Shown one piece after another: positions 37,748 to 40,438 of a stretch of 64,000 nucleotides of DNA. The notes under the pieces were generated by a model. That model saw only the letters and a list, made by a program, of their open reading frames with translations, ran no database searches and was not told where the DNA came from. The position numbers and the translations under genes are program-made. Position 1 is the first letter of the stretch. Every line of letters starts with the position of its first letter. This DNA comes from Blastocatellia bacterium (GTDB lineage Bacteria > Acidobacteriota > Blastocatellia > RBC074): the NCBI GenBank assembly GCA_043736395.1, contig JAYTCQ010000354.1, positions 3,723 to 67,722 of the forward strand. Reading direction: 5' to 3'.

Positions 37748-39886
37748 CTACCGCTCAAATATTTCAACTAACGCAGCTTCAATGTCAGCCGCTTCTATAC
37801 TAATTTTCACTTCGCTCTGATCAGGATTATTTTTTCCAAATTCAACAGCACGTCGAACGGCATTGAGTGCGGCTTTGTTACAAACTGCCGCAATATCGGC
37901 ACCGCTAAAATTCTCTGAACGCGCTGCTAAATCTGCGGCGTTGATGCCTTCGGCGAATGGTCGGTTGCGCAGGTGAACCGTGAAAATTTCTTTACGGCTC
38001 TGTTCATCCGGCAATGGAATTGTCACCTGTTCATCAAAACGACCAGGACGCAAAATCGCGGGATCAAGCATGTCGGGACGATTCGTAGCCCCTAAAACCA
38101 GTACTCCGCGCAATTCTTCGGCTCCATCGAACTCCGCCAGAAATTGACTGAGAACGCGTTCCGCCACAGGATTTTCTCCTTTGCCACGAGCAGGAACCAA
38201 CGCATCAATTTCATCAAAAAAGATAATGCAGGGTGCGGCTTGCTTCGCTTTGCGGAAAACTTCGCGCACGCCTTTTTCCGATTCGCCTACATATTTTGAA
38301 ATTAATTCCGGTCCTTTGACCGAAATAAAATTCGCGCCACTTTCCGTGGCGATAGCTTTTGCCAAAAGTGTTTTTCCGCATCCTGGCAAGCCTGCGAGCA
38401 AGATTCCTTTTGGCGCACGCGTTCCCGCTTGCTCAAATAAATTCGCGTATTTGAGCGGCCATTCGACAGTTTCAATCAAGCGCGCTTTGACCTCGGCTAA
38501 GCCGCCGATGTCTTCCCATTTGACGCTGGGAACTTCGACAAAAACTTCGCGGATGGCTGACGGTTCGACTTCGCGTAAAGCCGTCACAAAATCATCCATC
38601 GTGATTTCAAGTTGCGCGAGCTTCTCATACGGAATGCTCGCCAAACCGAAATCAATGTCTTTCATAATGCGACGCAAACAAATCATCGCAGCTTCTCGGC
38701 ATAAGGCTTCGAGATCAGCACCTACAAATCCGTGCGTGATGTCGGCCAGGCGCGAAACGTCAACGTCTGCTGCCAATGGCATTCCGCGTTGATGAATTTC
38801 GAGAATGTGTAAACGTCCGTTGCGATCAGGGATCGGGATCGAAATTTCACGATCAAACCTTCCCGGACGCCGGAGCGCAGGATCAATATTATTCGGCAAA
38901 TTCGTCGCCGCGATCACAATTAAATTTTGCCGACGTGCGAGTCCATCCATCAACGCCAGCAGTTGTGCGACGACGCGTTTTTCGACTTCACCAACAGCGT
39001 TTTCCCGCTTGGGCGCAATCGAATCTATTTCATCAATAAAAATTATGCTGGGACCTTTGCGCGCAGCTTCTTCAAAAATTTTCCGCAAGTGCGCTTCGGA
39101 TTCGCCATAAAATTTATGAATAATTTCAGGTCCACTGATCGAAAAAAATTGTGCATCTGCTTCTTGCGCAATGGTGCGCGCAATCAAAGTTTTTCCCGTA
39201 CCTGGCGGGCCATACATCAGCACTCCTTTTGGTGCGTTGATGCCGAGCCGTTCGAAAACTTCAGGATAACGCAACGGCAATTCAATCATTTCCCGAATGC
39301 GTTGCAATTGCGGTTTCAGTCCGCCAATGTCTTCGTAAGAAAGTGTGGTACTGGACGCCGCAGTCGTTGCCGCAGTTTTTCCAACCGTCAAAGTCGTCGT
39401 CGGATTAATAATCACCGTACCTTTTGGCACGATGCTTTCAACTTTGAAATCCGCCGAGCGCGAACCAAACAACGTAGCGCGTACGCGATCACCTTCAACG
39501 ACTGATAAGCCGTCCAACAAACTTCCAATGTATTTTAGATCACGATCAGCGGGCGTAATCGTGAGCGGAGTCAGTACAATTTGTTCTGCCGGACGACAAT
39601 TAATTTTGCTAACGTTCACAAATTCATCAATGCCAGCACCAGCATTTTCACGCGATAAACCGTCCAACTGAAGGCGCGACTGTCCGCGCAAATCTTTGTA
39701 GGCAGGCATCACTTTGGCGACAGTTTTTCGCTTCCCTGAAACTTCGATAATGTCGCCGATAGAAACGTTCAGCCGTTCCATATCTTCGGGTCCCATCCGC
39801 GCCAGCGCACGCCCGACATCTTTGCTCAAGGCTTCTGTGACTTTTAATTTAAAGAGTTGTTCGTCTTTCGCTTCGCTGGTTTTCAT
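37748..39886 (-). CDS. Cdc48/VCP/VAT-like double AAA+ ATPase (N-domain, D1, D2).
   Basis: N-terminal double-psi-barrel-like domain; two Walker A 'GPPGTGKT' / 'GLPGCGKT' and Walker B 'IIFIDEIDS' / 'IIFFDEIDA' modules; 2nd-region-of-homology motifs. Start taken at the in-frame ATG 3 codons inside the ORF-track TTG. Confidence 0.85.
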
Positions 39887-39898
39887 AGCTCTCAACCT

Positions 39899-40438
39899 TT
39901 ACTTTTCACACTTGATTTCGATGACGCCATTGTTACAACTGACGCGCATTTTTTCAGCCGGAATGTTCGTTGGCAGCAGGATTTCTTTACGATATTTACG
40001 TTCGCCATGCGTTGCACTCAAAGTCAGCAAATCGTCTTTGACTTCAAGTTTGACATCCTTCGCTGTGACGCCGGGCATTTCTGCGATGATTAATACGTGA
40101 TCGTCTTCTTCAAAAAGATCAACGATTGGTTCGCGGATTTCCTGAACTACGGCGTTGCCGGATTTGGCATCGCGGCGCAGATTGCCGAATGGTTCGACAC
40201 GTGGTTCTCCGCTGCCGCCGCTTGCTGTTTTGATCGTGAATCCGTAGATGCCTTTGATTTCTTTGCCGTCCTGATTCGTGCCGCTGAATTCAACGGACTT
40301 GTTCAGCTCATCACCTTTTTCAGCAATTTCGCTGAGCTTTTCGAGGATGCCTGTCAAGCCGCCGAGCATTCCGCCCAAGCCAAGATTCAAGGCTCCACTA
40401 AAAGGATTTTCGTTATCTTTTTCATTCTTTTTCGTCAT
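39899..40438 (-). CDS. Hsp20/alpha-crystallin family small heat-shock protein (GvpH-like position).
   Basis: C-terminal alpha-crystallin domain 'PIVDLFEEDDHVLIIAEMPGVTAKDVKLEVKDDLLTLSA...NGVIEI'; Gly-rich N-terminal region. Confidence 0.75.
   Translation of the reverse strand: MTKKNEKDNENPFSGALNLGLGGMLGGLTGILEKLSEIAEKGDELNKSVEFSGTNQDGKEIKGIYGFTIKTASGGSGEPRVEPFGNLRRDAKSGNAVVQEIREPIVDLFEEDDHVLIIAEMPGVTAKDVKLEVKDDLLTLSATHGERKYRKEILLPTNIPAEKMRVSCNNGVIEIKCEK

What the first reader, a model, noticed from the sequence alone, without database searches (positions are those of the whole stretch)
37748..40438. Cdc48/VAT-like double-ring AAA+ unfoldase and an Hsp20 inside the gvp cluster
Bacterial gvp clusters typically contain the single-ring GvpN AAA+ (present here at 33844-34800). 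A second, Cdc48-type N-D1-D2 ATPase followed by an alpha-crystallin protein (reminiscent of haloarchaeal GvpH) suggests a dedicated assembly/quality-control chaperone pair for GvpA-family proteins.
Basis: partly seen in the sequence, partly recalled or inferred. Interest (0 to 1): 0.55.

Follow-up and report, generated by a model that had tools for sequence, protein, structure and literature searches.

The report
Gas-vesicle GvpH/GvpZ chaperone–unfoldase gene pair
The two genes are real and belong to the gas-vesicle cluster: they are homologues of the little-studied accessory genes gvpH (a small heat-shock-type holdase) and gvpZ (a Cdc48/VAT-type double-ring protein unfoldase), already named in Serratia but never functionally explained.

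Summary
Observation confirmed exactly. 37748-39886(-) encodes a 712-aa N-D1-D2 Cdc48/VAT-type AAA+ ATPase. 39899-40438(-) encodes a 179-aa Hsp20-fold protein. They lie 12 nt apart inside a co-directional gvp cluster.

The "dedicated to gas vesicles" reading is supported.
- Of the 80 closest genomic homologues (60-75% identity, about 17 phyla), 75 sit among gvp genes. The other five are contigs under 4.5 kb.
- Hsp20 lies directly upstream in 73/76 loci and GvpL/F directly downstream in 65/71.
- Gvp-linked copies form one clade (100/100 bootstrap), separate from stand-alone rhizobial and haloarchaeal Cdc48s.

It is not new as a gene. The order matches the Serratia/Psychromonas operon gvrA-gvpH-gvpZ-gvpF2-gvpF3, and published Serratia primers encode matching peptides. 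So Hsp20 = GvpH and Cdc48 = GvpZ, which the literature calls "unknown function" and non-essential.

The adjacent orf209 (= GvpY) has a ChaN/TraB/erythromycin-esterase (TIKI-superfamily) hydrolase-like fold.

Both ATPase rings keep Walker motifs and aromatic pore loops, and there is no proteasome-docking tail.

Most likely role (inferred): an auxiliary holdase-unfoldase(-hydrolase) quality-control module for hydrophobic GvpA-family proteins.

The parts
37748..39886 (-). GvpZ homologue: Cdc48/VAT-type AAA+ unfoldase, 712 aa (N domain about 13-175, D1 about 180-445, D2 about 455-690)
   Evidence: Pfam and TIGR01243 hits. Best solved relative is VAT 5g4f. Walker A, Walker B and pore-loop residues are invariant across 79 gvp-linked homologues. 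Synteny with the Psychromonas/Serratia gvpZ position and primer-encoded peptides.
39899..40438 (-). GvpH homologue: Hsp20/alpha-crystallin-fold protein, 179 aa, with a conserved N-terminal amphipathic helix and no C-terminal IXI extension
   Evidence: PF00011 above cut-off. Family alignment A1: 41/43 members hit HSP20 and 39/43 hit PF05455 GvpH. hhalign to Halobacterium GvpH gives 97.4% probability, E 1.3e-11, 156 columns. PGAP names the Methylosinus orthologue gvpH.
40456..41082 (-). GvpY homologue (orf209), 208 aa: putative hydrolase with an EreA/ChaN/TraB (TIKI-superfamily) fold
36859..37671 (-). GvpL/GvpF family protein (gvpF2 position), directly downstream of gvpZ
   Evidence: PF06386 E 2.3e-51. 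Directly downstream in 65/71 loci.
36146..36862 (-). GvpL/GvpF family protein (gvpF3 position)
   Evidence: PF06386 E 3.4e-30.
35734..35952 (-). GvpA, major shell protein and the presumed client
   Evidence: PF00741. Called as a 72-aa gene. 88-99% identical in most related loci, lower (48-80%) in the most divergent ones.
34856..35605 (-). GvpC-position protein (orf249), no Pfam hit
   Evidence: Position after gvpA; hits in 28/80 loci.
33844..34800 (-). GvpN, single-ring AAA+ ATPase
   Evidence: AAA_5. 54-59% identity to annotated gvpN genes.
33507..33830 (-). GvpV-position protein (orf107)
   Evidence: Follows gvpN as in Serratia and Psychromonas; hits in 42/80 loci.
32363..33127 (-). GvpL/GvpF family protein (gvpF1 position)
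   Evidence: PF06386 E 5.5e-62. Gene call of 254 aa.
31932..32333 (-). GvpG with a long Asp/Glu-rich tail
   Evidence: PF05120; translation.
29970..31913 (-). Tandem ArsA/Get3-type ATPase, a further candidate handler of hydrophobic proteins
   Evidence: PF02374 x2 and TIGR00345. Present in at least 34/80 loci. The association with gvp clusters and Hsp20 was noted by Castillo & Saier 2010 (PMC2963123).
29008..29969 (-). GvpA-family (29736-29969), GvpK (29361-29723) and GvpA-family (29008-29337) genes: the end of the cluster
   Evidence: PF00741 and PF05121.
28939..28983 (-). Only strong terminator-like hairpin (20-bp stem plus T-run), just after the last gvp gene

Best explanation
SHOWN: the two genes are homologues of the accessory gas-vesicle genes gvpH and gvpZ. 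GvpH is an alpha-crystallin-fold protein. GvpZ is a Cdc48/VAT-type double-ring AAA+ ATPase. They belong to a clade found only inside bacterial gvp clusters, nearly always in the order (gvpY)-gvpH-gvpZ-gvpF2-gvpF3. INFERRED MECHANISM: GvpH acts as an ATP-independent holdase. It captures GvpA-family proteins (GvpA, J, M, S), which are very hydrophobic and aggregation-prone, when they are off the assembly pathway. The GvpZ hexamer recognises these clients, or a GvpH/GvpY adaptor, through its clade-specific N domain. It then threads them through its aromatic pore loops using ATP hydrolysis in both rings, pulling them out of aggregates or mis-assembled or collapsed shell material. The unfolded chains either return to the assembly pool (GvpF/L, GvpN) or are destroyed. 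Destruction may involve the neighbouring GvpY, a TIKI/ChaN/erythromycin-esterase-fold putative hydrolase, or housekeeping proteases. GvpZ has no proteasome-docking tail, so it works without a 20S core. The module improves yield and robustness and is not required for building a vesicle.
For: Identity: domain and family scores and VAT as best solved relative. Dedication to gvp: 75/80 nearest genomic homologues carry core gvp genes and the other 5 are 2.5-4.4 kb contigs; Hsp20 is directly upstream in 73/76 and GvpL/F directly downstream in 65/71. Linkage persists down to 52-54% identity on the Methylocella and Methylosinus plasmids. Stand-alone Rhizobium, Microvirga and Sphingomonas copies and haloarchaeal copies are 45-56% identical and fall outside a 100/100-bootstrap gvp clade. 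[quoted passage not shown] Serratia primers encode MSEE, QFFTIS, VRWEDVG and AEMFGD, mapping to the start, D1 position 246, D2 position 455 and D2 position 584. Competent motor: Walker A G/K/T and Walker B D-E are invariant in both rings in 79/79 sequences; the D1 pore loop is K-F-Y-G (Tyr 79/79) and the D2 pore loop is K-[Y/W]-V-G, as in the unfoldase VAT (my knowledge of VAT pore-loop work). Dedicated client or adaptor: N-domain identity is 57% within the clade against 30% to non-gvp homologues, while D1 is 77% against 61%. Holdase: haloarchaeal GvpH 'prevents GvpM aggregation' and delta-H vesicles are weaker (PMC9501494 Table 2); the window protein is homologous to it over its full length. 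ACD-Cdc48 pairing recurs independently in haloarchaea. GvpY fold and invariant His/Glu/Asp residues. Operon coupling: 12-nt and 17-nt gaps and no internal strong terminator. Auxiliary role: gvpH, gvpY and gvpZ are non-essential in Serratia. In E. coli the deletions give 44.6-47.9 dB against 46.3-50.4 dB for wild type.
Against: No client has been identified, and no experiment links GvpZ or GvpH to GvpA-family proteins in bacteria. Serratia delta-gvpZ and delta-gvpH mutants showed no change in vesicle shape or stability. Many functional gvp clusters lack GvpZ: Anabaena, B. megaterium and haloarchaea (literature), and the Octadecabacter, Spartinivicinus and Nostoc plasmids. GvpH lacks the C-terminal IXI tail that typical sHsp oligomers use, so it may be an adaptor and not a classical holdase. 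GvpY's catalytic activity is inferred from fold and conserved residues only; the best structural match, ChaN, is a haem-binding protein and not a protease.
Confidence: 0.6

Rival explanations
1. Active dismantling. GvpZ, with GvpH and GvpY, extracts GvpA from intact or collapsed gas-vesicle shells. This would lower buoyancy on demand or clear the very stable collapsed shells and recycle their protein. On this reading it is a disassembly machine, not an assembly-side quality control.
For: Cdc48/p97/VAT enzymes typically extract subunits from stable assemblies (general knowledge). Both rings and both aromatic pore loops are intact. A putative hydrolase is encoded next door. There is no assembly phenotype in Serratia. 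In most relatives the genes sit in the regulatory operon, not the structural one.
Against: No evidence here or in the papers read that bacteria actively dismantle vesicles. The genes are co-transcribed with the essential assembly genes gvpF2 and gvpF3. Deletion slightly lowers the signal in E. coli and does not raise it.
Confidence: 0.2
2. Core assembly motor. GvpZ unfolds or primes GvpA and delivers it to the growing rib, in parallel with or upstream of GvpN.
For: Position immediately upstream of GvpF/L proteins, which bind GvpA. Strict conservation of the gene order.
Against: Non-essential in Serratia with no change in vesicle morphology. Only a 2-3 dB effect in E. coli. Absent from many vesicle-forming clusters. 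Caveat: the published Serratia deletion appears to leave D2 in frame.
Confidence: 0.1
3. Regulatory proteolysis. The unfoldase removes a regulator of gvp expression, analogous to GvpD-dependent loss of GvpE in haloarchaea.
For: In most relatives gvpH and gvpZ lie between the regulator genes gvrA and gvrB/gvrC.
Confidence: 0.06
4. Hitch-hiking housekeeping chaperones. On this reading they are a general stress Hsp20/Cdc48 pair (or a proteasome-associated ARC/Cpa-type ATPase) that merely lies near gvp genes.
For: Hsp20-Cdc48 pairs exist outside gvp clusters in haloarchaea. Stand-alone bacterial CDC48 genes exist.
Against: Clade-specific linkage across about 17 phyla with conserved gene order and 100/100 monophyly. 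The pup_AAA model TIGR03689 scores 400.6 against a 504.75 cut-off, while TIGR01243 passes. No sequence of 84 has a penultimate Tyr, so there is no HbYX motif. The Hsp20 is full-length GvpH.
Confidence: 0.03

Closest known systems
GvpZ of Serratia sp. ATCC 39006 and its Psychromonas ingrahamii 37 orthologue (annotated as a CDC48-subfamily ATPase)
   Same: Same operon position (after gvpH, before two gvpF/L genes) and same N-D1-D2 architecture in Psychromonas. Serratia primer-encoded peptides fit D1 and D2 motifs. Same clade in the tree.
   Different: In this window the NtrC-type gvrA and the gvrB/gvrC genes are not in the operon. The trio is preceded instead by a 1178-aa coiled-coil protein and a bilin/V4R/kinase module. 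The Serratia protein sequence itself could not be retrieved here.
GvpH (PF05455) of Halobacterium salinarum and Serratia
   Same: Homologous over the N-terminal amphipathic helix plus the alpha-crystallin domain. It is a non-essential accessory protein, and haloarchaeal GvpH prevents GvpM aggregation.
   Different: The window copy alone scores below the Pfam cut-off (14.5 against 22 bits). In haloarchaea GvpH pairs with GvpI and there is no adjacent Cdc48.
VAT (Thermoplasma acidophilum) and archaeal Cdc48
   Same: Best solved relative (686 bits). N domain made of two sub-domains (Pfam CDC48_N and CDC48_2; in VAT/p97 these form a double-psi barrel and a beta-clam, from my knowledge of those structures), then D1 and D2 with aromatic pore loops in both rings.
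   Different: No C-terminal HbYX motif. Bacterial, encoded in a gvp operon. The N domain is only about 30% identical to non-gvp homologues.
p97/VCP/Cdc48 of eukaryotes
   Same: Same domain organisation; 624-628 bits to p97 and plant CDC48A structures.
   Different: The D1 pore loop is aromatic (F-Y), whereas in p97 it is not (my knowledge). No ubiquitin system or UBX/SHP adaptors are expected in these bacteria.
TIKI / TraB-PrgY-GumN / ChaN / erythromycin-esterase superfamily (for the neighbouring GvpY)
   Different: Much smaller (about 200 aa). Sequence identity to structural matches is 8-11%. No member reaches the Pfam cut-off. Catalytic activity is untested.

Membership tests
Cdc48/VAT/p97 (TIGR01243, type II AAA+) | N domain made of the CDC48_N and CDC48_2 sub-domains (in VAT/p97 a double-psi barrel plus a beta-clam) | tested here: met
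   PF02359 E 1e-23 (residues 13-96) and PF02933 E 8.7e-10 (residues 114-170).
Cdc48/VAT/p97 (TIGR01243, type II AAA+) | Two tandem classic AAA domains, each with Walker A, Walker B and a lid | tested here: met
   Two PF00004 and two PF17862 stretches. [12 protein letters not shown] and [12 protein letters not shown] at 226/285 and 499/558. Invariant in 79/79 clade members.
Cdc48/VAT/p97 (TIGR01243, type II AAA+) | Whole-protein score above the curated family cut-off | tested here: met
   892.9 bits against 802.65.
Cdc48/VAT/p97 (TIGR01243, type II AAA+) | Arginine-finger / second region of homology motif (RPGRFD) | tested here: met
   [11 protein letters not shown] at about 340 and [11 protein letters not shown] at about 613.
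Cdc48/VAT/p97 (TIGR01243, type II AAA+) | Hexameric double ring with ATP-dependent unfolding activity | not testable with these tools
   Needs biochemistry or cryo-EM.
Proteasome-coupled archaeal Cdc48 / PAN / Mpa-ARC | C-terminal HbYX (or GQYL) motif for docking on the 20S core | tested here: not met
   The C-terminus is ...VEIFER. No penultimate Tyr in 0/84 sequences. TIGR03689 scores 400.6, below 504.75. The PAN models pass their cut-offs only through the generic AAA core, as two separate stretches.
GvpZ (Serratia nomenclature) | Gene between gvpH and gvpF2 in the gvrA operon of a gvp cluster | tested here: met
   Window order is GvpY-Hsp20-Cdc48-GvpL/F-GvpL/F. Psychromonas order is NtrC-GvpH-CDC48-GvpF-GvpF-HK-RR. 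The operon is described in PMC4982088.
GvpZ (Serratia nomenclature) | Sequence homology to Serratia GvpZ itself | tested here: inconclusive
   Only primer-encoded peptides were available. MSEE fits the start; QFFTIS, VRWEDVG and AEMFGD map colinearly to positions 246, 455 and 584. VRWEDVG matches 7/7 in some clade members. The full Serratia sequence was not retrievable.
Small heat-shock proteins (Hsp20/alpha-crystallin) | Alpha-crystallin domain | tested here: met
   PF00011 31.9 bits against 20.8. hhalign to a haloarchaeal Hsp20 gives 98.4% probability over 82 columns.
Small heat-shock proteins (Hsp20/alpha-crystallin) | C-terminal extension with an I/V-X-I/V motif for oligomer assembly | tested here: not met
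   The protein ends 2-3 residues after the last strand (...NGVIEIKCEK), as do nearly all 43 family members.
GvpH (PF05455) | Profile match over the N-terminal region plus the ACD | tested here: met
   The window copy alone gives E 0.039. At family level, 39/43 members hit with best E 6.2e-9. hhalign to Halobacterium GvpH gives 97.4% probability, E 1.3e-11, 156 columns.
TIKI/TraB/ChaN/erythromycin-esterase superfamily (GvpY, orf209) | Characteristic alpha/beta fold | tested here: met
TIKI/TraB/ChaN/erythromycin-esterase superfamily (GvpY, orf209) | Conserved His/Glu catalytic set and hydrolase activity | tested here: inconclusive
   Invariant H20, E122, E130, H182, D82 and N104. Their spatial clustering and activity could not be checked.

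The most novel reading that the evidence does not exclude
GvpY-GvpH-GvpZ is a self-contained, horizontally mobile holdase-unfoldase-hydrolase machine. Its job would be to pull GvpA-family subunits out of the extremely stable gas-vesicle shell or its collapsed remains, that is, active turnover or recycling of a protein organelle. That would be a bacterial, ubiquitin-independent counterpart of Cdc48 'segregase' action with its own built-in hydrolase.
Probability: 0.2. Interest if true: 0.7.

Novelty: new member of a known kind. Interest (0 to 1): 0.42.

Why it matters
How cells handle GvpA, one of the most hydrophobic and aggregation-prone proteins known, is an open question in gas-vesicle biology. 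It is also the main obstacle to expressing gas vesicles as acoustic reporter genes (proteotoxic stress in E. coli, PMC12848028). In the papers held here, GvpZ, GvpH and GvpY are listed only as 'unknown function'.

This analysis shows three things.
- GvpZ is a fully equipped VAT-type unfoldase.
- GvpH is a full-length homologue of the haloarchaeal anti-aggregation factor.
- GvpY has a hydrolase-superfamily fold.

The three genes travel together across about 17 phyla. This yields a concrete, testable proteostasis hypothesis and a candidate add-on cassette for heterologous gas-vesicle production.

The analysis also flags that the published Serratia gvpZ deletion may not be a null, because D2 appears to be retained in frame.

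Tried and rejected
- Literature searches for 'gas vesicle' combined with CDC48, Hsp20, AAA, p97, VAT or disaggregase returned only haloarchaeal transcriptomics or unrelated papers. None describes a Cdc48 in gvp clusters. Searches were essentially wasted.
- Ramsay et al. 2011 (PNAS) could not be read by DOI or by a guessed PMC id.
- I could not retrieve the Serratia GvpZ protein. A second protein search seeded with the Shewanella homologue returned Psychromonas but not Serratia. I therefore relied on primer-encoded peptides and synteny.
- The representative-library search showed a huge family (20,892 proteins at E up to 1e-30). It carries no context or names, and those ids cannot be looked up, so it was not used for the clade boundary.
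The source organism remains unidentified; it is a metagenome contig.
It was redone with database homologues.
- I considered that an archaeal Hsp20-Cdc48 operon was captured whole by the gvp cluster. This was weakened: the Hsp20 next to haloarchaeal Cdc48 matches only the ACD (82 columns), whereas the window protein is full-length GvpH. GvpH was probably already a gvp gene and Cdc48 joined it.
- I considered a proteasome-linked ARC/Cpa/PAN identity. This was rejected.
- A census of GvpN-bearing plasmids is small and dominated by Halobacterium. It shows only that GvpZ is present in a subset: Methylocella and Methylosinus have it; Octadecabacter and Spartinivicinus do not, and the Nostoc and haloarchaeal records have no Cdc48 hit next to gvpN.
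Full report
**1. What is there**

On the minus strand the window carries one long co-directional gene array. The finding's coordinates match two ORFs.

- 37748-39895 from an upstream TTG. The likely start is the ATG at 39886, giving 712 aa.
- 39899-40438, giving 179 aa.

The larger protein has these features.

- Domains: CDC48_N, CDC48_2, two AAA domains and two AAA-lid domains.
- It passes the curated CDC48 family model TIGR01243 at 892.9 bits against a cut-off of 802.65.
- Its best solved relative is the Thermoplasma unfoldase VAT, 686 bits over residues 14-679. p97 and plant CDC48A follow at about 624-628 bits.

The smaller protein has an Hsp20/alpha-crystallin domain above the Pfam cut-off.

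The two genes are 12 nt apart with a Shine-Dalgarno-like sequence between them.

The flanking genes are:

- GvpL/F x3;
- GvpA;
- a GvpC-position protein;
- GvpN;
- GvpG;
- a tandem ArsA;
- GvpK;
- two more GvpA-family genes.

The only strong terminator-like hairpin follows the last gvp gene, at 28939-28983.

**2. Is the Cdc48 dedicated to gas vesicles?**

I scanned one genome per species (GTDB) for relatives and kept the best 80 loci with 10-kb flanks. I then searched those loci with every protein of the window's cluster. Results:

| Measure | Count |
|---|---|
| Loci containing core gvp genes | 75 of 80 |
| Loci without core gvp genes (all contigs of 2.5-4.4 kb; four of the five still show the Hsp20) | 5 of 80 |
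| Hsp20 directly upstream on the same strand (where flank exists) | 73 of 76 |
| GvpL/F directly downstream (where flank exists) | 65 of 71 |

By their record titles the loci come from about 17 phylum-level groups:

- Desulfobacterota;
- Acidobacteriota;
- Gamma- and Alphaproteobacteria;
- Planctomycetota;
- Nitrospirota;
- Chloroflexota;
- Chlamydiota;
- Bacteroidota;
- Cloacimonadota;
- Lentisphaerota;
- Calditrichota;
- Sumerlaeota;
- Omnitrophota;
- Myxococcota;
- Bacillota;
- Actinomycetota.

These are MAG assignments and may contain binning errors.

In an annotated plasmid collection the picture is the same.

- Gvp-linked: the best hits, Methylocella tundrae (53.8% identity) and Methylosinus sp. 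C49 (51.7%), again lie in gvp clusters. Their order is GvpH/Hsp20, a hypothetical protein, then CDC48.
- Not gvp-linked: the Rhizobium, Microvirga and Sphingomonas CDC48 genes (47-48% identity by tblastn) stand alone. The haloarchaeal ones sit beside a plain Hsp20, away from gvp genes.

I built a neighbour-joining tree of 84 sequences. It puts all 79 gvp-linked proteins in one clade with 100/100 bootstrap support, separate from those five non-gvp proteins. The caveat is that the outgroup sample is small.

**3. It already has a name**

In most related loci the gene between the conserved 'orf209' and the Hsp20 is an NtrC-type sigma-54 response regulator. The common order is therefore orf209, NtrC, Hsp20, Cdc48, GvpF, GvpF.

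Tashiro et al. 2016 (PMC4982088) describe the second gvp operon of Serratia sp. [quoted passage not shown] They call GvpV, W, X, Y and Z proteins of 'unknown function'. [quoted passage not shown]

The P. ingrahamii locus reads as follows:

1. NtrC-type response regulator, 472 aa.
2. GvpH, 177 aa, with a PF05455 hit.
3. CDC48, 732 aa, GenBank name 'cell division control protein 48 ATPase of AAA family CDC48 subfamily'.
4. GvpF.
5. GvpF.
6. PAS histidine kinase.
7. Response regulator.
8. Then gvpA, and further on gvpN.

That is the Serratia operon gene for gene.

I could not fetch the Serratia proteins. Instead I translated the deletion primers in the paper's Table S3.

| Primer | Encoded peptide | Where it fits |
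|---|---|---|
| gvpZ_5R | MSEE | gvpZ start |
| gvpH_3R | QFFTIS | D1 position 246 (window [10 protein letters not shown]) |
| gvpZ_3F | VRWEDVG | D2 start, position 455 (window VKWEDIG; 7/7 in some clade members) |
| gvpZ_3R | AEMFGD | position 584, 129 residues after the D2 start |
| gvpH_3F | ERSCRNG | window Hsp20 ...RVSCNNG |
| gvpY primers | LIHFPI and QPLGKG | Shewanella orf209 LLIHIPIIH; window ...HQPLSSVK |

Hence Cdc48 = GvpZ, Hsp20 = GvpH and orf209 = GvpY.

The text of Tashiro 2016 contains no occurrence of 'AAA'. A 2017 paper from the same laboratory still lists GvpZ as of unknown function. No paper in the library links gas vesicles to a bacterial Cdc48.

**4. The Hsp20 is GvpH**

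I aligned 43 orthologues.

- The alignment shows a basic N-terminus, a conserved amphipathic helix (G-L-x-D-L-V-E-K-L-G-E-L-A-E-K-G) and a VYGF...VEPFGN motif.
- It also shows a compact alpha-crystallin domain that ends right after the last strand. The C-terminal I-X-I tail of classical sHsps is missing.
- 41 of the 43 members hit PF00011 and 39 hit PF05455 GvpH, with best E 6.2e-9.
- The profile aligns to Halobacterium GvpH over 156 columns, including the N-terminal helix (97.4% probability, E 1.3e-11).
- It aligns to the Hsp20 beside a haloarchaeal Cdc48 only over the ACD (82 columns).
- PGAP already names the Methylosinus orthologue gvpH.

Haloarchaeal GvpH is non-essential, prevents aggregation of the GvpA paralogue GvpM, and its loss gives weaker vesicles (PMC9501494).

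**5. Properties of the motor**

Across the 79 gvp-linked proteins:

- Walker A Gly/Lys/Thr and Walker B Asp-Glu are invariant in both D1 and D2.
- The D1 pore loop is K-F-Y-G, with Tyr in 79/79.
- The D2 pore loop is K-[Y/W]-V-G.
- Arginine-finger motifs (RPGRFD) are present in both rings.

The D1 aromatic pore loop matches VAT; from my knowledge of the family, p97 lacks it there. This fits an enzyme that unfolds substrates on its own.

None of the 84 sequences has a penultimate Tyr, so the HbYX proteasome-docking motif is absent. Most of these bacteria would lack a 20S proteasome in any case (general knowledge).

The N domain, which in this family binds substrates and adaptors, is 57% identical within the clade but only 30% identical to non-gvp homologues. 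D1 is 77% against 61%. That fits a conserved, clade-specific partner.

**6. The third member, GvpY**

Orf209 (40456-41082) has no Pfam hit on its own and is present in 60 of the 80 loci. In Methylocella and Methylosinus it sits between GvpH and Cdc48.

- Its family has invariant H20, D82, N104, E122, E130 and H182.
- 17 of 46 members hit TraB/PrgY/GumN weakly.
- An AlphaFold model has pLDDT 87 and pTM 0.83.

To my knowledge these belong to the TIKI/erythromycin-esterase/ChaN superfamily, which includes metalloproteases and esterases. A hydrolase role for GvpY is an inference from fold and conserved residues only.

**7. How it most likely works**

Shown:
- the identity of the genes;
- their dedicated linkage to gvp clusters;
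- intact motor motifs;
- operon coupling;
- homology of GvpH to an anti-aggregation factor.

Inferred:
- GvpH holds off-pathway GvpA-family proteins.
- GvpZ engages them, directly or through GvpH or GvpY, and threads them out of aggregates or faulty or collapsed shell material.
- The chains are then reused, or degraded by GvpY or housekeeping proteases.

The module is auxiliary.
- gvpH, gvpY and gvpZ deletions still make vesicles in Serratia.
- In E. coli they give 44.6-47.9 dB against 46.3-50.4 dB for the wild-type cluster.
- Many vesicle-forming clusters lack GvpZ.

One caution: the primers indicate that the Serratia delta-gvpZ allele fuses codon 4 to the start of D2. A D2-only fragment may therefore remain.

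The rivals are active vesicle dismantling, a core assembly motor, regulatory proteolysis and hitch-hiking housekeeping genes. They are weighed in the rival-explanations section. The last is essentially excluded.

**8. Novelty and score**

The gene pair is a new member of known, named but uncharacterised gvp accessory families.

In the papers I could search and read, I found no description of any of the following:
- GvpZ as a complete VAT-type unfoldase;
- its strict, clade-wide linkage across many phyla;
- the full-length GvpH homology;
- the TIKI-superfamily fold of GvpY.

Together these turn three 'unknown function' genes into a testable proteostasis hypothesis that is relevant to heterologous gas-vesicle expression. 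Interest is moderate, at 0.42.

Noticed in passing
window 44658-49905 (-): bilin reductase 44658-45464, ABM monooxygenase 45476-45784, Ser/Thr kinase 45839-47317, V4R 47404-48120, phycobilisome-protein-like 48078-48584, orf204 48599-49213, V4R 49234-49905: A co-directional module lies directly upstream of the gvp genes. It combines a ferredoxin-dependent bilin reductase, an ABM (possibly haem-degrading) protein, a phycobiliprotein-like protein, two V4R proteins and a kinase. The canonical bilin-binding Cys appears replaced (EKGMRD). Two Planctomycete loci (L066, L077) also carry the V4R and phycobiliprotein-like genes upstream of their gvpY-H-Z (46-47% and 29-31% identity). This may be a light or redox sensor controlling buoyancy in place of GvrA/B/C.
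   Followed up: partly
window 41100-44636 (-): A 1178-aa protein sits between the sensory module and gvpY. It has an N-terminal globular region of about 150 aa followed by about 1000 aa of Gln/Glu/Leu-rich coiled coil. It has no Pfam hit and no homologue in any of the 80 related loci. It occupies the slot where relatives have the NtrC-type gvrA.
   Followed up: partly
Serratia delta-gvpZ allele (PMC4982088 Table S3), relevant to window 37748-39886: The published in-frame deletion primers join codon 4 (MSEE) to VRWEDVG, the start of D2. The mutant used to call gvpZ non-essential may therefore still encode an intact D2 AAA domain.
   Followed up: partly
window 29970-31913 (-): A tandem (two-domain) ArsA/Get3-type ATPase lies inside the cluster. 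It is found in at least 34 of the 80 related loci, and as a single-domain form directly upstream of Cdc48 in the more divergent loci (L061-L078). The ArsA/Hsp20/gvp association was noted by Castillo & Saier 2010. Together with GvpH and GvpZ it suggests a wider set of handlers for hydrophobic proteins.
   Followed up: partly
L091 5564-8214 (Halobacterium NRC-1 pNRC200) and L085 7756-10265 (Natrinema): Haloarchaeal megaplasmids carry an Hsp20 gene immediately upstream of a CDC48 gene, away from (about 27-30 kb from) their gvp clusters. ACD-protein/Cdc48 pairing therefore recurs independently of gas vesicles.
   Followed up: partly
window 31932-32333 (-): GvpG carries a C-terminal tail of about 65 residues that is almost entirely Asp/Glu.
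   Followed up: no
window 52584-56645 (+): A CbbQ/NorQ-type AAA+ (AAA_5 plus CbbQ_C) is followed by a 1043-aa VWA/CobT-like protein. This is a MoxR-type ATPase/VWA pair unrelated to the gvp cluster.
   Followed up: no
proteins P0003, P0013, P0273: A few close homologues of the gvp-type Cdc48 are about 1000 aa long on short contigs. They may be fusions, extra AAA domains or gene-calling artefacts.
   Followed up: no
L093 (Spartinivicinus ruber plasmid pA) and L092 (Octadecabacter arcticus pOA238_160): These plasmid-borne gvp clusters lack GvpZ, and Octadecabacter keeps a GvpH-like Hsp20. A related species, S. poritis, does encode a clade member (P0291), so one genus may hold both cluster types.
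   Followed up: no
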